Shown piece after piece: positions 4,539-12,022 of a DNA stretch of 32,000 bases. How positions within the stretch are numbered: position 1 is the stretch's first letter; every line of letters begins with the position of its first letter. The DNA is taken from NCBI GenBank assembly GCA_038889235.1, contig JAWAHN010000001.1, forward strand, positions 434,499 through 466,498. Direction: 5' to 3'. Below the pieces are notes generated by a model. The model did not search any database, was not told where the DNA came from, and worked only from the letters and a program-made list of their open reading frames with translations. The translations under genes were made by a program, and so were the position numbers. Origin of the DNA: Candidatus Jordarchaeales archaeon. GTDB taxonomy: Archaea; Asgardarchaeota; Jordiarchaeia; Jordiarchaeales; Freyrarchaeaceae.

Positions 4539-4694
4539 GACGATTGCCCTCCACGGCACACTCTGAGTGGAGAAAGTCGTTTATACGTTTTAAGCGTTTT
4601 CAAAATGGGTGCAGGGTCAATAGTTTCATTCTTTCCCTAAGTCAGGGGCTAGATTTCTGATGTTAAGTTTTAATCCGAGCGTTCTTTGACAATC

Positions 4695-4702
4695 TTTAAA
4701 TA
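4695..4702 (+). promoter_or_regulatory. Candidate TATA box of the hdrA operon
   Basis: TTTAAATA in the AT-rich intergenic region about 50 nt upstream of the hdrA start. Confidence 0.4.
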
Positions 4703-4752
4703 AAAATAGATCTTTGTTAAGACGGACAGCATGGAGGAGGTGTTAAAGAGGT

Positions 4753-6693
4753 TTGGGAAGTGAAATTACTCCTCGCATAGGTGTCTTCATATGCCACTGA
4801 GGCAAGAACATAGCTGGCGTCATCGATGTCGAAGCGCTCAAAGACTATGTTTCAACGCTGAAGGATGTCGTCTGGGTTGAGACCTACATTTCTCTCTGCA
4901 CACACGCCGGGGCGGAGCTGATAAAGGCGAGGGTGGAGGAGCACGAGCTGAACAGGGTGGTTGTCGCGGCGTGCACCCCTAAAACCCACGAAGAAGTCTT
5001 TAGGAGAGTGTTGCTCGAGGCTGGTCTGAGCCCCAGCATGTTGGAGTTCGTGAATATCAGGGAACACGATTCCTTCGTCCATATGACGGATCCCAAAAGC
5101 GCCTTAGAAATGGCTAAGGACGTTATAAGGGGAGCGGTGGCTAAGGCGAGACTTCTTGAAGAGATACCACGCATGCTACTTCCCGTGACCCCCAGTGTCC
5201 TCGTGATAGGGGGAGGCATAAGTGGCATACGGGCTGCGCTCGAAGTGGCTGAAAGCGGGTTCAAAGTGTACTTGGTTGAAAAAAGTCCGACGATCGGCGG
5301 GAGAATGGCGATGCTTGACAGAACTTTTCCAACGAATGACTGTGCCATCTGAATACTTGGCCCGTTAATGCTTGAGACTGCCAGGAGGGAGGAAGTGGAA
5401 ATTCTCACTTATAGCGAGGTCGAGTCGGTTGAAGGAAACGTGGGGGACTTCAAGGTTAAGGTTAGGAAGAAACCGAGGTATGTTAACGAGGAGCTCTGCA
5501 ATAGCTGTGGGGCATGCGCTGAGGTCTGCCCTGTTTTCATACCGAGTAGCTTCGATCTAGGGCTTGGAGTGAAGAAGGCGATACACCAGCCGTTTCCACA
5601 GGCTGTCCCACAAACGTACCTCATAGACATTGAGAGGTGTATAAGGTGCGGGCTGTGCGAGAAGGTGTGTGACAAGAAGGCTATAGACTTCAACCAAAAG
5701 GAGCAGGTAATTGAGCTGGAGGTCGGAGCTATAATAGTGGCTTGTGGCGGTGATTCCTATACGCCGAGGTTCGGTGAGTATGGCTACGGCAAGTATGCCA
5801 ACGTGATAACTCAGTTCCACTTGGAGAGAATGCTTGCCCCGAACGGACCAACGGGTGGAGAGGTTGTGAGGCCATCTGACGGAAAGAAACCTAGAAGAGT
5901 TGTCATGATCCAGTGCGTTGGCTTTAGAGATATGAAGAGGAACGAGTATTGTTCCAACGTGTGCTGCATGGTGGCTATCAAAAACGCGATGCTATTAAAG
6001 CAGCACTTGCAGGATGTCGAGGTCTTTGTCTGCTATACTGACGTGAGGTCGTACGGTAAGGGCTACGAGGAGTTCTATGTTCAGGCGAGGGAACATGGTG
6101 TTATATTCCTAAGGGGGCGCGTTGGAGAGGTCGTCGAGGACGCCGATACAGGTGAGCTCTTAGTAGTGGTCGAGGACACGCTTTCAGGCAGAGTAATTGA
6201 GCTAAGAGCTGACCTAGTCGTCCTCTCAACAGGAGTTGTGCCATCAAGTGACTTAAGCAGGATAGCCGAGATTCTGAAGCTCGAGCGGAGCCCAGATGGA
6301 TTCATAAAGGAGTTACACTCACGCTTAGCTCCAACAGACACTAAAATGCGCGGCATATATGTCTGCGGCGATGCGCAGGGGCCAAAGGCCATAGATGCGT
6401 GTGTAGCTCAGGCGAAAGCTGCCGCGGCATCTGTCATCAGCCTTCTTTCTATCGGAAAGGTGGAGCTCGAGCTTGCTACAGCAGTCGTCAAGGATGACAA
6501 GTGTAGTGGCTGTGGGCTTTGCGAGCTCGTCTGCCCCTACAACGCTATAAGCGTCGGCGACGTCGCAACGGTAAACGAGCTCCTGTGTAGGGGGTGCGGT
6601 AAGTGCGCTGCAACATGTCCCTCTAAGGCGATTTATAGGAGGGGTTACAGGGAGGAGCAGCTTGAAGCATACATAGATGAGATCGCGAAATAG
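4753..6693 (+). CDS. hdrA: Heterodisulfide reductase subunit A, selenoprotein with two in-frame UGA (Sec16 at 4798-4800, Sec200 at 5350-5352), 646 aa
   Basis: One frame runs from TTG 4753 (SD GGAGGTG) through GVFICH-TGA-GKNIAG, VVVAACTP, VLVIGGGISG, FPTNDCAI-TGA-ILGP and the ferredoxin motifs to TAG 6693. It joins track ORFs 4933..5352 and 5368..6693. Both TGA codons sit where HdrA has Cys. Confidence 0.93.
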
Positions 6694-6704
6694 GAGGATG
6701 ATGG

Positions 6705-7187
6705 ATGACTGAACCCAAAATCGGGGCCTTCCTCTGCTGGAAAGGGTTTGACAGCCCCCAGAAATGAGGTTATGGTGCTGCAGACATGGCGGGGACGATG
6801 AGGCTGCAGTATCCCGCTGCAATTAGGCCGATAAGAGTGCCGTGCGCCGGCAGAGTTTCAGCGGACTTGATAGCTAGGTTACTGTGGAAAGGTGCGGATG
6901 GCGTAATGGTTGTAGGGTGACGAGTCGGTGAGTGTGCGTTTGAAAACGGGAACATTATGGCAGCAAGGCACGTCGAGATAGTTCAAGACCTGCTGGAACT
7001 TATGGGTCTTGGCGCGGGGAGGGTGACGATGGTTTACTGCTCCTCGGCTGAGGGCAAATACTTCGCTGAGGCGGTTAGAGAAGTAAGCGAAAAAGTGAAG
7101 GCCTTGGGTCCTAACCCTTTAAAGGCGAAAAAAGCGGATGAGCTTGGAGCCAAAAGCGCACGAGCTCCAAGTGACCCCCTCAGCTAA
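6705..7187 (+). CDS. mvhD: MvhD/VhuD [2Fe-2S] subunit, selenoprotein with two UGA (6765-6767, 6918-6920) and a predicted 21-nt intron; join(6705..6742,6764..7187), 153 aa
   Basis: ATG 6705 follows GGAGG. The spliced product reads MTEPKIGAFLCWK-U-GYGAADMAGTMRLQYP...RVPCAGRV...GADGVMVVG-U-RVGECAFENGN...LGPNPL. The track shows only the last 76 aa. Confidence 0.92.
6743..6763 (+). other. Predicted BHB intron (21 nt) in mvhD mRNA
   Basis: Central helix CUGG(6737-40)/CCAG(6758-61), bulges AAA(6741-43) and AAA(6762-64), inner stem GGGUU/AGCCC with a UGAC loop, outer pairing CCUC/GAGG. Cutting after the second base of each bulge restores CxxU spacing. Confidence 0.8.
7136..7177 (+). promoter_or_regulatory. 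Eukaryote-like SECIS candidate inside the mvhD 3' coding region
   Basis: A-UGAG (7138-7142), 8-bp stem CUUGGAGC/GCUCCAAG (7143-50/7164-71), apical loop containing AAAA (7152-55), then UGAC (7172-75). This gives the tandem G.A/A.G core. Confidence 0.75.
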
Positions 7188-7272
7188 CGCGTGGGGGCTT
7201 TCATCTCCCACCGATATCTCAATAAAAGTTTCAATGGTTGGTTGTAGTGTGTAACAAAAATGTTCTCTCGGG

Positions 7273-8295
7273 TTGATGGGTGTGAGCGACAAAGGAGTCG
7301 AGTGGTTAGCATGTAAGAGTGATGTATACGCCTTGCTGCGTAGTTTGGTTAGGTGTTTACTGGAGGAAGGGGAAGTCTCAGGTGTCGCTTCAGGAGAGGT
7401 TAAAGAAGAAAAGATTTCACTGCGCATAGTTAGGGATGTTAAGGAAGTCGACGAGGCGCCTTTAGACCGTGTTTTGCTTTACGGTTACCGTGGACTGGAA
7501 TCGCCTGTCAGAGCCGTTAGAGATAGGAAGGGGGAAAGACTAGCTATTCTTGTGAAGCCGTGCGAAGCGAGAGCCTTGATTGAGCTCTCAAAAAGGAAGC
7601 AAGTTAGCCTAAGTTCGACGTTCGTTGCAGGTTTTGATTGTCCCGGAGTGAGCGTGAACAACACCGAGGGTAGCTTACTGGCTTTGAGCGACGCACCAGA
7701 ATACGAGGTTCTGAGGGAGGCATGTAAAAGGTGTGAGGTGCACACACCCCCATATAGCGACGTGGTGATAAGCCTGCTTGCATCAGCCGACATACCCCTC
7801 GTGAGGGCTGGGACCGAAAGGGGAGTGAAGATGCTCAGGATCCTTGAAAGAAAGGGGATTCGCTTCGGTAATCCGAGCCGAGAGCTTCTTTCGAAAAGGG
7901 AGGAAAAGTTAAAGATGCTGAACGAGAACGGTAAAAGGAGACTGGAGGAAGAGGAGAAGGAGCTGCTTTCAAAACCTGCCGCTGAGAGATTCTCTTGCTT
8001 CATGAGCTGGCTTGACTCATGCATTAAGTGTGGTGCGTGCATAAGGGCTTGTCCAATTTGTTACTGTAAGGATTGCATAGTTACGGCTAGACGAAAAGAT
8101 TACGCTCCTTCATTCTTCCTAGTTACGAAAATGCTCCACATGGCGGATTCCTGCGTTTGCTGCGGTAAGTGCGATGAAGTCTGCCCGAAAAGCATACCGT
8201 TATCGTATATATTCTACCACCTGGGAAGGAGGTTTGCCTCCAGATACAACTACCTAGCAGGAGTAGACTTCTCGAACCCTCCAAGAATAATCTGA
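7273..8295 (+). CDS. FdhB/FrhB-family protein with a C-terminal 2x[4Fe-4S] domain
   Basis: Motifs LAILVKPCEARALIEL, CKRC, CIKCGACIRACPICYC and HMADSCVCCGKCDEVCP. Lies directly downstream of hdrA-mvhD. Confidence 0.8.
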   Translation: MMGVSDKGVEWLACKSDVYALLRSLVRCLLEEGEVSGVASGEVKEEKISLRIVRDVKEVDEAPLDRVLLYGYRGLESPVRAVRDRKGERLAILVKPCEARALIELSKRKQVSLSSTFVAGFDCPGVSVNNTEGSLLALSDAPEYEVLREACKRCEVHTPPYSDVVISLLASADIPLVRAGTERGVKMLRILERKGIRFGNPSRELLSKREEKLKMLNENGKRRLEEEEKELLSKPAAERFSCFMSWLDSCIKCGACIRACPICYCKDCIVTARRKDYAPSFFLVTKMLHMADSCVCCGKCDEVCPKSIPLSYIFYHLGRRFASRYNYLAGVDFSNPPRII

Positions 8296-8462
8296 AAACA
8301 CTCTCTAAAATCCAAAAGACTAAACTTTAAAGGGGTTTAGGCGTTTCTAAGTGTGTAAATTGGGAAGGAAGGAGGTTTCACGGGGTTCTTTGCTTTTTTG
8401 GGACTTTTCGGGGAGCTAGGAGGGTTCGTTTAAAAATTGTTTAAAAAATGGATGAGATAGGA

Positions 8463-8744
8463 TTAATCGTATTTTTCGTCCCCTTCAACAATGTAAACTG
8501 CGAATACTCCGTCGTCGAACTCTTCGAACTTATCGATCCGCACTCTTATTCCGAGGTCTTCAAGTATGATGCGTAAGTCATCCAGGTAGTCGTAAACACC
8601 ACATGAGCGGCACCAGAAGGATCCGCTGAAAAATACGCCAAAATCCTTTTCACCTACTTGGACCAGTTCGGCAACCACTTCTGGAGCACGGTACTTGTTG
8701 TATTCCTGAATTGCAGCATGGAGTTTTTCCTTAAAGAGGTTCAA
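8463..8744 (-). CDS. Small hypothetical protein with a CxxC motif
   Basis: ORF containing FSGSFWCRSCGVYDYLDD. Probable TTG start at 8744 after GGAGG (track start 8762). Confidence 0.65.
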   Translation of the reverse strand: MNLFKEKLHAAIQEYNKYRAPEVVAELVQVGEKDFGVFFSGSFWCRSCGVYDYLDDLRIILEDLGIRVRIDKFEEFDDGVFAVYIVEGDEKYD

Positions 8745-8806
8745 GCAACTACTCCTCCGCAAATGTTGGGAAAAGTAGGGTGTTGGTAGCCCGGCCCAGA
8801 TTCGAA

Positions 8807-8818
8807 TTCCTCCCGTGT
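8807..8818 (-). other. tRNA intron 2 (12 nt, T-arm, position 53/54)
   Basis: Sequence ACACGGGAGGAA between G53 and T54, bulges AGA/AAU, CCCC/GAGG helix with one mismatch. Confidence 0.75.
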
Positions 8819-8856
8819 CTGGGGTCCCGGGGTCCAGAGCCCCGGATGCTTGGCCG

Positions 8857-8876
8857 CTCCGCGCCCCCTAAAGGCT
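8857..8876 (-). other. tRNA intron 1 (20 nt, D-arm, position 15/16)
   Basis: Sequence AGCCTTTAGGGGGCGCGGAG, bulges AGA/AGC, relaxed GUGU/GCGG helix, inner GCCU/GGGC hairpin. Confidence 0.8.
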
Positions 8877-8919
8877 CTACACCACCGGGCTTCCAGTTTT
8901 AGGAGAATAACGAAGAATT

Positions 8920-8933
8920 TTATATAATTTTCG
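8920..8933 (-). promoter_or_regulatory. BRE-TATA promoter of tRNA-Gln
   Basis: Minus strand reads CGAAAA-TTATATAA about 30 nt upstream of the tRNA 5' end. Confidence 0.65.
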
Positions 8934-9072
8934 AGGGCGCCGACTTTCTGTCCAAGTTAATTATTCTTCATAAACCTAGCCACATGTTCTGAAAACTAGC
9001 ACGATAAACCTCTGACCCCTCTGCACGAAGAAGTTCAGCACTCATGTTTAAAGATGCGTGGCTCACACTTGA

Positions 9073-9390
9073 CTAGATTTCCTCGAGGTACCGTTTCCCC
9101 TTGCTTGTTATCTCCCACACCTCTATTTTGTTCACAAAGCCCTTTTCCTCAAGGCCTTTAAGCATCGAAACTATCTGCTCTTTAGATGCGAGCTCTTTAC
9201 CCGTCGCTTTCCGCGGAGCATTGAACTCCGTCATTATTTGGTCGAGGAGTTTTCTCTGGTTAGAGAGTATTTCGAGCAGGAAAAGCTCATCGTCGCTAAG
9301 TTTTTCTTCGAGAGGGGGGTGTTTCAGCTTTTCCTTAGCCCCCACCCACTCTGGCACTTTTCCAGGGACCTCCCCACTTTTCCCGCTCAT
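9073..9390 (-). CDS. Winged-helix domain protein
   Basis: C-terminal LKGLEEKGFV...WEITSKGKRYLE wHTH pattern. Probable ATG start at 9390. Confidence 0.65.
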   Translation of the reverse strand: MSGKSGEVPGKVPEWVGAKEKLKHPPLEEKLSDDELFLLEILSNQRKLLDQIMTEFNAPRKATGKELASKEQIVSMLKGLEEKGFVNKIEVWEITSKGKRYLEEI

Positions 9391-9529
9391 AAAGGCAACT
9401 CTCCTCCCCAACACACAGGTACCATTAGGTAACCATTCTCACATCTTCTACTTATTACTTTCTATGCGCACTTGGCCACGCGCAAAAATAGAAAGAGGGG
9501 ACATGAAAAGATTCTGGGTGTCTGGAGGG

Positions 9530-11763
9530 TTACAGCGTGTCTATGTACTCCTCAGGTTTCGGCGGTTCTGGTTTCAGTCCTTTTCTCTTCCGGATTTCAG
9601 CTATTACTTCACTTAGCAGAGACTTTGGAACTTCAGCCCACCTTGAGAACTGTGTTTGCCAGAAAGCTCTGCCAGAAGTCTTTGACCGCAAGTCATTTGC
9701 AAGCCCGAAGCTTTCTCTTACCGGTATCTCTCCATTCACGAATACTAGCGGGCCACGCTGCTCTATGTTTATAACATGACCTCTGCGCTGGGATAGTATG
9801 CTTGAAACCGCCCCTATGTACTCTGGTGGGACCATTACTTGGATCTTGTATATTGGCTCGAGCAGGGTTGGCTTGGCGCTTAGGAATGCACCCCACGTGG
9901 CACGCCTGCTCATAGGCATGATTTGCGCTGGCCCTCTGTGAACGGGGTCCTCGTGCAGCTGGCAGTCCGTCACTATTACTTTAACGCCTCTCATGGGCTC
10001 CTCGGCAAGGGGACCTGCTTCGCAAGCCCATTTTATCCCTGATATTATTGTCTCCTTCACCTCACGTAGGTACTGGATGCCACGCGTCCTGTCAACTATC
10101 ACATTGCCGTACTCGTCAATCGCCCAAATGTTCCTGGCGTCATGAGGGTCCCAACCAGCTTTTTCTCTCAGAATCTTCGCCCTCTCATCTCTCTCTTGGT
10201 ACTCCGATATTTCGCCCTCCGTGAGCAGGTTTACCGTCTCCTCGTTAAGCGGCTCAACCATGATCCAAATCCTGTTGTGCTTGTTCGGGCTTTTTCCTAG
10301 TACCGGCTGGGAGGACGAGGTGACCGTTTCCCTGTAGACCACTATTGGCGGTGAGACTGTGATATCAACTTCTGACTGGATTTCCTTCAGAGCTATTTCG
10401 AGGTGTAGTTCGCCCATTCCCGAGAGCAGGTATTCTCCGGTTTCTTGATTAATCGTCGTCACTATGTTCGGGTCTTGAATCGAGATTTTCTGCATCAGTT
10501 CCACAAGTTTCGGTAGATCTTTCGGGTGTTTCGGCTCTATGGCTACGGTGACAACAGGCTCTGAAATGTACTTAATTTTTTCAAATGGAACCACGATGTC
10601 CTTTATGTTTTCGGCTACCACGGTTTCTCCAGCTCTAGCCAGCTCCAGTCCGAGCAGAGCCGCTATGTTGCCAGCTGGTATGGAACTGACTATGGCTCGT
10701 TTGGCACCCATGTAAATGCTCGTCTGCTGAACCCTGTAACCTTTCTTAGCTGTGAGCAGGTAAACTTGGTCTCCTTCACTTATCGTGCCGGAGAAAACTC
10801 TCCCCGTCGATACTATTCCCGCGTGGGGGTCGACTATAACCTTGTTTAGACAAATTACAGTTGGGCCGTTCTCATCGCACTCAAGCATCGCTTTTCCTAT
10901 CTCGCTGTTAAGGTCCCCGTGCCAGATCTTCGGCACTCTGTAGCGTTGAGCCTCAATCGGGTTGGGAAGGTGGTCGACGACCATGTCCAACACAGCAGCA
11001 TGAACCGGGAGAAGCTTCTTGAGCTCGTCTACCCTATCTTCCTTGTAATAGGCGACTATGTCACTAAACTTCAACCCTAACTCGAGCATTTGAGGAACAG
11101 TAAACCCCCACCTGTGAAGGGCTGAACCAAAGGCCACGCTACCATTAGCCGGATTAACCTTCCACTTGTTGGCGAACTCCTTCTCACCATAAATGTCGAT
11201 TAAACCATTAAAATCTCGAATAATCCTGTTAAGCTTCTCTTGGACGCCGCGCTCGTCAAGCCTTAACTCGCGGATTAAACGGTCAATCTTATTAATAAAC
11301 AATACGGGTCTGACACGCTCAGATAAAGCCTGTCGAGTAACGGTTTCCGTTTGGACGCCTATCTCCTCTACGGCATCTACCACTACGACCGCGCCGTCAA
11401 TTACTCTTAAAGCTCTCGTAACGTGCCCGGTGAAGTTTACGCGAGCGAGCCAGCCGGCTCGTTCTCTACGTGTCCGGGCGTGTCTATGAGGTTTATGAGG
11501 TACTCTTTCCCGTCGAACTTGTGCACTAGAGATATGTTAGCGGCTTTTATTGTTATCCCTCTTTTCTGCTCCTCTTCAAGGTAGTCCAATGCCCTTGCTT
11601 CTCCCGCTATCGTTGGGGAGAGTAGCCCAGCTTCAGCAAGCAGGGAGTCGCTTAGCGTTGTTTTGCCGTGGTCGACGTGTGCTATTATTCCGAAGTTCCT
11701 TATCTGCTCTTTCACTCGCATCATTCTTTCAACTTCTTCAATGTACTTCATCCTTGCAGACAA
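9530..11763 (-). CDS. fusA: Translation elongation factor 2 (aEF-2 family), spliced: complement(join(9530..11436,11466..11763)), 734 aa
   Basis: Exon 1 has [15 protein letters not shown] and DTPGHV. Exon 2 continues [28 protein letters not shown] and [12 protein letters not shown]. The exons total 298+1907=2205 nt, which is 735 codons. Confidence 0.93.
11437..11465 (-). other. Predicted BHB intron (29 nt) in EF-2 mRNA
   Basis: Helix ACGU/GCGU, bulges AGA (11467-65) and AAA (11438-36), inner stem GAACGAGCC/GGCUCGCUC (8 of 9 bp) with a GGCU loop, outer CCCGG/CCGGG. The intron contains an in-frame TAA. Confidence 0.88.
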
Positions 11764-12022
11764 AGATTTCCACCTCTCACCTTCTTAATGGTGAGATTAA
11801 GATAACAGCTTTTAAACCTTTTTTTAAACCTTTTCAAGTTTAAAAAGCTGCAAGCCCCCGGCCTAGGGGACTTATACCTTAATCAGGAGCTTCTAGTGTT
11901 TTACTGGGGCGCAAACCGCTCACTTTCCGAGTTTTGCACCACGTTCTTTAAATTGGTAAAGGTTAAATAGGTCGCCACTTTCATCTTGTTGACGAAAATT
12001 TCGTTAACAAAGGGGGGCATGT

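What the first reader, a model, noticed from the sequence alone, without database searches (positions are those of the whole stretch)
6731..6770. 21-nt BHB intron ending 1 nt before a selenocysteine UGA in mvhD
Unspliced mvhD reads C-W-K-G-F-D-S-P-Q-K-U, stretching the conserved CxxC/CxxU motif by exactly 7 residues. The extra 21 nt form a BHB with perfect CUGG/CCAG helix, two AAA bulges and a GGGUU/AGCCC hairpin. Removal gives C-W-K-U-G-Y-G-A-A-D. The UGA lies in the outer stem (CCUC/GAGG) of the precursor. Inference: splicing may gate Sec insertion or [2Fe-2S] assembly. Because the intron is in frame, annotation pipelines cannot see it.
Basis: partly seen in the sequence, partly recalled or inferred. 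Interest (0 to 1): 0.9.

Follow-up and report, generated by a model that had tools for sequence, protein, structure and literature searches.

The report
tRNA-type intron in Asgard mvhD
A 21-base intron of the kind normally cut out of tRNAs interrupts the selenoprotein gene mvhD of a hot-spring Asgard archaeon (Jordarchaeales), and a metatranscriptome contig lacks exactly these 21 bases, which is rare direct RNA support for mRNA splicing in an archaeon.

Summary

- **Structure.** Window 6743-6763 is a 21-nt insert in mvhD (6705-7187). It has bulge-helix-bulge geometry: a 4-bp helix CUGG/CCAG, two AAA bulges on opposite strands and a 5-bp intron hairpin. The Sec UGA sits in the outer helix.
- **Product.** Removal gives C-W-K-U-G-Y-G. 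An intron-less paralog in the same genome, 15 of the 17 other ortholog loci read (the other two have CLKU) and the solved selenoprotein VhuD (PDB 9sfi) all show this CxxU spacing.
- **Relatives.** The four other species of the family carry an insert at the same site. There it is 22 nt, so it breaks the frame. The helices are kept, with one compensatory GC>AU change, and the loops differ.
- **RNA.** A 2418-nt contig from an RNA-seq run of a ~97%-identical strain lacks exactly these 21 nt. A second contig lacks a 29-nt BHB intron in EF-2.
- **Machinery.** The genome encodes two EndA paralogs and RtcB.
- **Not supported.** Nothing supports the idea that splicing gates Sec insertion.
- **Earlier scan notes.** This scan has already noted BHB introns in other genes of this genome (leuD, rpl44e, alba, cbf5, queE and others).
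- **Literature.** In the papers I searched, only crenarchaeal cbf5 has a confirmed intron of this kind.

Verdict: a new member of a known kind, of high interest.

The parts
4753..6695 (+). hdrA, immediately upstream and on the same RNA contig. It has two in-frame Sec TGA codons, at 4798 and 5350.
   Evidence: Translation reads GVFICHUG and DCAIU. An hdrA homolog lies upstream of mvhD in all relatives (tblastn). The X4 RNA contig spans 4803-7238.
6705..6742 (+). mvhD exon 1 (M-T-E-P-K-I-G-A-F-L-C-W-K, ending with the first two bases of the Lys codon).
   Evidence: The peptide xPKI(G/A)AFLCWK is conserved in its own frame in all 5 species, with synonymous differences in the Gly/Ala codons.
6743..6763 (+). 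The 21-nt BHB intron. The cut is placed after the 2nd nucleotide of each bulge. Because both bulges are AAA, any register from 6741-6761 to 6744-6764 gives the same product.
   Evidence: RNA contig: '21 left out at 6740'. A 7-residue gap against the paralog, the orthologs and PDB 9sfi_K.
6737..6740 (+). Central helix H, 5' strand (CUGG, exon 1). It pairs with 6758-6761.
   Evidence: All 5 sequences pair at all 4 positions (UA/UG and GC/GU variants).
6758..6761 (+). Central helix H, 3' strand (CCAG, the intron's 3' end).
6741..6743 (+). Bulge 1 (AAA), carrying the 5' splice site.
   Evidence: Invariant in 5 species.
6762..6764 (+). Bulge 2 (AAA; AAG in the other genus), carrying the 3' splice site.
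6744..6757 (+). Intron hairpin h' (GGGUU / loop UGAC / AGCCC).
   Evidence: The stem is kept in all 5 species, with one compensatory GC>AU change and CG>UG changes. The loops differ in sequence and are 5 nt in the relatives against 4 nt here.
6731..6736 (+). Outer helix h, 5' strand (CCUC, bulged U6735, G6736), all exon 1.
   Evidence: Invariant, so it says nothing on covariation. These bases are also under coding constraint.
6765..6769 (+). Outer helix h, 3' strand (U6765 and GAGG). It includes the Sec codon TGA at 6765-6767.
6764..7187 (+). mvhD exon 2 (last base of the Lys codon, then U-G-Y-G-A-A-D and on to the stop). A second Sec TGA lies at 6918-6920.
   Evidence: Pfam FlpD PF02662, E = 1.5e-39. 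PDB 9sfi_K has Sec (X) at both aligned positions.

Best explanation
Window 6743-6763 is a genuine bulge-helix-bulge (BHB) intron in the coding region of the selenoprotein gene mvhD (FlpD family). mvhD encodes the [2Fe-2S] subunit that follows hdrA, in a Candidatus Jordarchaeum-like Asgard archaeon.

In the pre-mRNA, exon bases CUGG pair with the intron's 3' end CCAG to form the 4-bp central helix. The intron interior folds into a 5-bp hairpin. Exon bases CCUC and G pair with U and GAGG, which includes the Sec UGA, to form the outer helix. This leaves two AAA bulges on opposite strands.

The inferred mechanism is as follows. The archaeal splicing endonuclease cuts in each bulge; two EndA paralogs are encoded, consistent with a heteromeric (alpha-beta)2 enzyme. 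RtcB then joins the exons. The mature mRNA reads UGC UGG AAA UGA GGU, that is C-W-K-U-G, the CxxU spacing of intron-less MvhD/VhuD.

Shown here: the structure, its conservation, the frame-breaking 22-nt versions in relatives, and an RNA contig without the 21 nt. Inferred: which enzymes act, and the exact cut positions within the AAA bulges.

The intron was probably gained in the ancestor of the family. The in-frame length of 21 nt is a derived loss of one base in this genome, from the hairpin loop (5 nt in the relatives, 4 here) as the alignment suggests.
For: 1. Geometry. The MFE fold gives h / H (4 bp) / 3-nt bulge / h' hairpin, with the second 3-4-nt unpaired stretch on the other strand.
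2. Paralog and orthologs. The own-genome paralog L002 reads FCCWK-U-GYGASD with no insert. Of 17 ortholog loci from other families, 15 read CWK-U (or CWH-C) and two read CLK-U, all with the same spacing and no insert.
3. Relatives. All four other species of the family (three of the same genus, one of another genus) have an insert at the identical site, but of 22 nt. Exon 1 (xPKIGAFLCWK) and exon 2 (UGYGAAD...) therefore lie in different frames, and only excision gives an MvhD. Independent metagenome contigs reproduce the three 22-nt variants that were found again.
4. Pairing. 69 of 69 pair cells are standard pairs, against 39-51% when the partners are slid. There is one compensatory GC>AU change plus wobble-compatible changes, while the loops vary.
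5. RNA. In RNA-seq run X4, a 2418-nt contig (depth 23) over 4803-7238 has exactly '21 left out at 6740'. Coverage differs strongly between neighbouring genes (0 at 7317-7563 and 8058-8304), as expected of RNA. In the same run the EF-2 contig lacks a 29-nt BHB intron (anatomy).
6. Solved structure. VhuD (PDB 9sfi_K), with Sec at both sites, aligns with a 7-residue gap at the insert.
7. Machinery. The genome has two EndA paralogs, RtcB and SepSecS.
8. Chance. The rate of such a motif at a fixed site and length is 2e-6 to 3e-5.
Against: - The RNA evidence is an assembled contig, not raw reads. It comes from a ~97%-identical strain in another study, and no DNA from that sample was available. A DNA allele without the intron is therefore not formally excluded, and the unspliced fraction cannot be measured.
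- Raw-read metatranscriptomes X8-X10 gave no usable coverage.
- With only five distinct sequences, the covariation statistics are weak: 101 of 500 shuffles reach the observed score.
- The outer helix is invariant and coding-constrained, and it is displaced by a bulged U.
- The fold energy is not exceptional (z = -1.29).
- Cleavage by EndA and ligation by RtcB were not tested.
Confidence: 0.9

Rival explanations
1. The 21 nt are an ordinary translated in-frame insertion. On this reading they are a 7-residue loop (GFDSPQK) between the Cys and the Sec of MvhD, and the BHB-like fold is coincidental.
For: In this genome the insert is in frame and free of stop codons, so a full-length protein could be made without splicing. 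The fold z-score is only -1.29.
Against: The same-site inserts in four relatives are 22 nt and break the frame. The RNA contig lacks the 21 nt. The insert sequence is conserved as paired RNA, not as peptide. It separates two residues of a CxxU motif whose spacing is fixed in the paralog, the orthologs and PDB 9sfi.
Confidence: 0.03
2. The strain sampled in RNA run X4 simply lacks the insert in its DNA (precise intron loss). On this reading the contig does not show splicing. The insert may still be an intron in this genome.
For: The X4 contig differs from the window at 65 of 2418 positions, and no DNA run of that study could be laid. The tool warns that DNA can be present in RNA libraries.
Against: Two different introns (mvhD 21 nt, EF-2 29 nt) are both missing precisely in that run. 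All five species of the family keep the mvhD intron in DNA, although they are far more divergent (69-77% protein identity). Depth jumps from 23 to 0 between adjacent genes, which is unlike genomic DNA.
Confidence: 0.05
3. The frame break in the relatives is overcome at translation rather than by RNA splicing. This could be programmed frameshifting or ribosomal bypass over a hairpin. Alternatively, the relatives' genes are pseudogenes.
For: A stable hairpin next to a UGA resembles recoding sites. Rfam gave a weak sub-threshold match to a frameshift element (RF01097, 20.5 bits against a cut-off of 43, E = 0.41).
Against: The Rfam match is at chance level. Both exons are under purifying selection in all five species, and both Sec codons are kept in four of them. 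The geometry is specifically BHB, and the excised form exists as RNA. The same genome splices a BHB intron out of EF-2.
Confidence: 0.02

Closest known systems
BHB intron in the cbf5 pre-mRNA of Crenarchaeota (Watanabe 2002; Yoshinari 2006; Yokobori 2009, PMC2738675)
   Same: Both are short BHB introns inside a protein-coding region, removed by the tRNA-splicing machinery. Both are lineage-specific in presence and go with a hetero-oligomeric EndA. Gene callers miss or mis-handle both.
   Different: The gene differs (an energy-metabolism selenoprotein, not an RNA-modification enzyme) and so does the lineage (Asgard, Jordarchaeales). The splice junction lies 1 nt before a Sec UGA that forms part of the outer helix. 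The intron is in frame in this genome and breaks the frame in its relatives. RNA support is from a metatranscriptome contig, not RT-PCR.
Multi-intron tRNA genes of Asgard archaea (Valentin-Alvarado 2024, PMC11291895; bioRxiv 10.64898/2026.10.13.758758)
   Same: The motif is the same, as is the presumed enzyme pair (two EndA paralogs in most Asgard genomes). The intron-rich lineages are the same too: the preprint names Jordiarchaeaceae among the richest.
   Different: Those papers treat tRNA genes only. [quoted passage not shown]
Unconventional splicing of HAC1/XBP1 mRNA in eukaryotes (IRE1 plus tRNA ligase). This comparison is from my own knowledge.
   Same: Both are non-spliceosomal removals of a very short intron from an mRNA (26 nt in XBP1) by an endonuclease plus the tRNA ligase. 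In both, the reading frame downstream depends on the splice.
   Different: IRE1 recognises paired stem-loops, not a BHB. That splicing is a regulated stress switch, and no regulation is shown here.
Selenoprotein VhuD/MvhD of Methanococcus (PDB 9sfi; PMC13518236)
   Same: The fold family is the same (FlpD). Sec sits at the same two Cys positions (CxxU and G-U-xxxEC). The gene is a partner of HdrA.
   Different: The methanococcal gene has no intron. The organism here is a non-methanogenic Asgard archaeon.

Membership tests
BHB intron (substrate of the archaeal splicing endonuclease) | [quoted passage not shown] | tested here: met
   CUGG/CCAG with AAA at 6741-43 and 6762-64. The same holds in 4 relatives, and all H cells pair.
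BHB intron (substrate of the archaeal splicing endonuclease) | Flanking helices: h' within the intron and h between the exons (strict hBHBh' form) | tested here: inconclusive
   h' is a perfect 5-bp stem in all species, with one compensatory change. h (CCUC/GAGG) exists but is offset by a bulged U plus a G.U pair, which the MFE fold draws as a 2x4 loop. The motif is therefore strict on the intron side and relaxed on the exon side.
BHB intron (substrate of the archaeal splicing endonuclease) | Excision at the bulges restores the functional reading frame or sequence | tested here: met
   Excision gives CWKUGYG, matching the paralog and 15 of 17 ortholog loci in sequence and PDB 9sfi_K in spacing. 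It restores the frame in the four 22-nt relatives.
BHB intron (substrate of the archaeal splicing endonuclease) | The excised form exists as RNA while the DNA keeps the insert | tested here: met
   The RNA-seq contig lacks exactly 21 nt. DNA of 5 species and of independent metagenome contigs keeps the insert. Caveat: the RNA and the DNA are not from the same sample.
BHB intron (substrate of the archaeal splicing endonuclease) | The genome encodes EndA and an RNA ligase (RtcB) | tested here: met
   Two PF01974 matches above the cut-off (ORFs of 205 and 195 aa) and one RtcB match at E = 1.6e-180.
BHB intron (substrate of the archaeal splicing endonuclease) | Cleavage by EndA at the predicted phosphodiester bonds | not testable with these tools
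   This needs an in-vitro assay or end-mapping of the intron and exon halves.
MvhD/VhuD (Pfam FlpD PF02662) selenoprotein | Family profile match and the conserved Cys/Sec set | tested here: met
   PF02662, E = 1.5e-39. The TGA codons lie at the positions of Sec in PDB 9sfi_K and of the TGA codons in 15 or more relatives.
MvhD/VhuD (Pfam FlpD PF02662) selenoprotein | Sec-decoding machinery in the genome | tested here: inconclusive
   SepSecS is found at E = 1e-123. The tRNA-Sec candidate is below the gathering score (30.7 bits, 108 nt against a 91-position model). No SECIS family is matched in Rfam. EFsec and PSTK were not searched.

The most novel reading that the evidence does not exclude
In this genome the intron has become in-frame and free of stops. 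Spliced and unspliced mRNAs could therefore both be translated, the unspliced one into an MvhD with 7 extra residues inside the CxxU motif. The Sec UGA is base-paired in the precursor. Splicing efficiency could thus act as a switch on the active selenoprotein. That would be an archaeal case of regulated or alternative mRNA splicing coupled to Sec decoding.
Probability: 0.06. Interest if true: 0.9.

Novelty: new member of a known kind. Interest (0 to 1): 0.75.

Why it matters
For two decades, cbf5 of Crenarchaeota has been the only archaeal protein-coding gene with a confirmed BHB intron. This report gives a second kind of gene, in the Asgard lineage. The case rests on comparative proof (frame-breaking versions in relatives) and on RNA-level support for two genes, mvhD and EF-2.

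Earlier notes of this scan list similar introns in about ten further genes of the same genome. Taken together, this suggests that the tRNA-splicing enzymes process many mRNAs in Jordarchaeales.

- **Annotation.** Such genes are called truncated, split or carrying a false insert.
- **Selenoproteome surveys.** The same mis-calls will distort counts of selenoproteins.
- **Evolution.** An archaeon has to keep translation away from unspliced mRNA, a problem often invoked in discussions of how introns and the nucleus arose in eukaryotes.

Tried and rejected
- **Rfam.** The gathering-threshold search of the whole window found nothing. A permissive search of 6650-7350 gave only chance-level hits: RF01097 at E = 0.41, RF03163 and RF01131.
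- **Raw-read metatranscriptomes.** X8 and X9 gave no reads, and X10 gave 5 partial reads. This is no test.
- **My own genome-wide search for further mRNA BHB introns.** Requiring a 4-bp H and at least 4 contiguous h' pairs gave 161,366 motifs. Requiring in addition that the splice join open frames left 6,535, and the search missed the EF-2 control, whose h' has a mismatch. It was too unspecific and I dropped it.
- **Mobile-element test.** blastn-short of the five intron variants and the EF-2 intron against the genome gave only self-hits. The intron is not a repeated element.
- **Covariation shuffles.** 101 of 500 shuffles reach the observed score. Five sequences are too few.
- **Fold energy.** The z-score of -1.29 is not informative on its own.

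Full report
**What is in the sequence**

mvhD occupies window 6705-7187 on the + strand, directly after hdrA (4753-6695). Read with TGA as Sec it gives a 160-residue protein with Sec at residues 21 and 72. It matches Pfam FlpD (PF02662, the methyl-viologen-reducing hydrogenase delta subunit) at E = 1.5e-39. The Pfam match starts only at residue 19, after the insert. hdrA also carries two in-frame TGA codons at conserved Cys positions.

- CCUC 6731-34 and GAGG 6766-69
- CUGG 6737-40 and CCAG 6758-61
- AAA 6741-43 and AAA 6762-64
- GGGUU 6744-48 and AGCCC 6753-57, around the loop UGAC
- the Sec TGA at 6765-67

The minimum-free-energy fold of 6720-6785 forms exactly these helices. The 5' AAA is a bulge between the 4-bp helix and the intron hairpin. 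The 3' AAA lies on the other strand, between the 4-bp helix and the outer helix. This is the bulge-helix-bulge arrangement of archaeal tRNA introns, as described in bioRxiv 10.64898/2026.10.13.758758:
- the outer helix h is exon with exon;
- the central helix H is exon with the intron's 3' end;
- the inner helix h' is intron with intron.

The outer helix is offset by a bulged U6735 and a G6736.U6765 pair, so the motif is strict on the intron side and somewhat relaxed on the exon side.

**Is it more than chance?**

The fold energy alone is not remarkable (z = -1.29). The geometry is. In a scan of both strands of the organism's own 2.14-Mb genome, I counted motifs with a 4-bp H, an h' of at least 5 bp, at least 2 outer pairs and an interior that is entirely one hairpin. 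These occur at 1.9e-6 of all (site, length) combinations, or 2.7e-5 without the last condition. Here the site and the length are fixed independently by the protein alignment described next.

**Comparative evidence**

The same genome holds a paralogous hdrA-mvhD pair (locus L002). Its MvhD reads F-C-C-W-K-U-G-Y-G-A-S-D, with no insert.

I read 17 ortholog loci from other families of the order and phylum, each with hdrA upstream wherever I checked. Fifteen read C-W-K-U-G-Y-G (C-W-H-C in one Cys form) and two read C-L-K-U. All have the same CxxU spacing and no insert.

The solved selenoprotein VhuD (PDB 9sfi_K) has Sec at both positions. It aligns to the window's protein with a 7-residue gap exactly at the insert.

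The four other species of the family are three of the same genus (G001-G003) and one of a second genus (G004). All have an insert at the identical place, but of 22 nt. As a result:
- exon 1 (start codon, then xPKI(G/A)AFLCWK) and exon 2 (UGYGAADMAG...) lie in different reading frames;
- the unspliced message ends within a few codons;
- only removal of the 22 nt gives an MvhD.

Both exons are clearly under purifying selection. MvhD identity is 69-77%, there are synonymous differences in exon 1, and both Sec codons are kept in four of the five species.

Independent JGI metagenome contigs (L058-L061) and GenBank MAG records (L036-L038) reproduce the three 22-nt variants that were found again, so assembly error is not the cause. 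The record titles name the organisms as Candidatus Jordarchaeum / Jordarchaeales, and the DNA-holding runs are hot-spring metagenomes.

**Structure conservation**

I aligned the five distinct sequences (A1) and counted pairs.
- All 69 pair cells of the proposed structure are standard pairs. When the 3' partners are slid by 1-3 columns, only 39-51% are.
- The intron stem shows one compensatory change (G-C to A-U in G004) and C-G to U-G changes.
- The central helix shows U-A/U-G and G-C/G-U variants.
- The hairpin loops differ in every species (UGAC, AGCCA, UGUCA, CAUCG, CUUCA).
- RNAalifold independently predicts the same helices.

With five sequences the shuffle control is not significant (101 of 500). 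I therefore rest the case on the frame argument and the kept geometry, not on covariation statistics.

Parsimony makes 22 nt the ancestral length. The 21 nt of this genome reflect a derived loss of one base, from the hairpin loop (5 nt in the relatives, 4 here) as the alignment suggests.

**RNA evidence**

Of the public runs that hold this stretch, X4 is a metatranscriptomic RNA-seq library. I laid it on window 4600-12000.
- A 2418-nt contig (depth 23.3) covers 4803-7238. It has 65 substitutions (about 97% identity) and exactly '21 left out at 6740'. Given the AAA repeats, this is the predicted excision.
- A 1951-nt contig covers 9516-11495 and has '29 left out at 11436'.
- On the minus strand this second place has BHB anatomy. 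H is ACGU/GCGU, the bulges are AGA and AAA, and the inner stem has 9 positions with one mismatch.
- Cutting after the second bulge base joins CACGUAG to ACUUC. This restores H-V-D-F-T-G in the G3 motif of EF-2.
- Depth falls from about 23 to 0 between adjacent genes (7317-7563 and 8058-8304). This fits transcripts rather than contaminating DNA.

The limits of this evidence are that it is an assembled contig from a closely related strain in another study, without matched DNA. It shows that the spliced form exists, not what fraction is spliced. The three raw-read libraries gave no usable coverage.

**Machinery**

The genome encodes two EndA-family proteins above the Pfam cut-off. This is consistent with the heteromeric, broad-specificity (alpha-beta)2 enzyme that was linked to cbf5 mRNA splicing (Yoshinari 2006, cited in PMC2738675). 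It also encodes RtcB and SepSecS. A tRNA-Sec candidate scores below threshold and is 17 nt longer than the model, so it may itself be interrupted.

**Mechanism**

Shown: the precursor structure, its conservation, and the existence of the excised RNA form.

Inferred: EndA cuts after the second base of each bulge (A6742|A6743 and A6763|A6764). RtcB then joins the exons to give UGC-UGG-AAA-UGA-GGU.

The exon-derived halves of the motif (CCUC, CUGG, UGAGG) are also present in the intron-less orthologs, because they encode F-L-C-W-K-U-G. The site was therefore predisposed to hold a BHB. A Cys codon in place of UGA would weaken the outer helix; this last point is inference only.

In the Asgard lineages studied, eukaryote-like SECIS elements have been reported (PMC11291895), and such elements act from a distance. 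I keep the regulatory reading only as a low-probability novel case.

**What is known**

[quoted passage not shown] Yokobori 2009 states that splicing was not confirmed for any other gene. The Asgard papers on intron-rich tRNA genes do not mention protein-coding genes.

Within this scan, earlier notes on the same genome report BHB introns in leuD, rpl44e, alba, cbf5, kae1, eIF2-gamma, queE, a Rab-like GTPase and EF-2. I tested only EF-2 myself. The phenomenon has therefore been found before by this scan on other DNA of this genome. What this report adds is the mvhD case, its frame-breaking relatives and the RNA-level support.

**Verdict**

This is a real BHB intron in a selenoprotein mRNA (confidence about 0.9). 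It is a new member of a known kind. Interest is high, because it extends archaeal mRNA splicing to Asgard archaea and to metabolic genes, and because it has RNA support.

Noticed in passing
window 11437-11465 (minus strand): A 29-nt frame-breaking BHB intron lies in the G3 motif of EF-2. H is ACGU/GCGU and the bulges are AGA and AAA. An RNA-seq contig of run X4 lacks exactly these 29 nt, which restores H-V-D-F-T-G.
   Followed up: yes
window 4798-4800 and 5350-5352: hdrA has two in-frame TGA codons at conserved Cys positions (GVFICH-U-G and DCAI-U). It is therefore a double-Sec HdrA, lying next to a double-Sec MvhD.
   Followed up: partly
window 7117 and 7127: The X4 RNA contig has one extra T behind 7117 and one extra A behind 7127 (net +2) in the C-terminal tail of mvhD. 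This would shift the frame of a tail that is conserved across the genus. It could be strain difference, contig error or something else, and is unexplained.
   Followed up: no
ARAGORN finds no tRNA in the window, and the X4 contigs over this place (8478-8836 and 8807-9195) show no excision. They may come from precursor or antisense RNA.
   Followed up: partly
L071 (G000:C2:40794-40901): The only tRNA-Sec candidate of the genome scores below the Rfam threshold (30.7 bits). It spans 108 nt against a 91-position model, so it may itself carry an intron.
   Followed up: no
L018, L019, L020 (order-level relatives): In some genomes of the sister family, the open frame runs from the hdrA C-terminus into mvhD (open frames of about 600 aa). 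This suggests an HdrA-MvhD fusion there.
   Followed up: no
L007 (G002), second Sec position: One species of the genus has Cys (VVG-C-RAGEC) where the others have the second Sec, while the first Sec next to the intron is kept.
   Followed up: no
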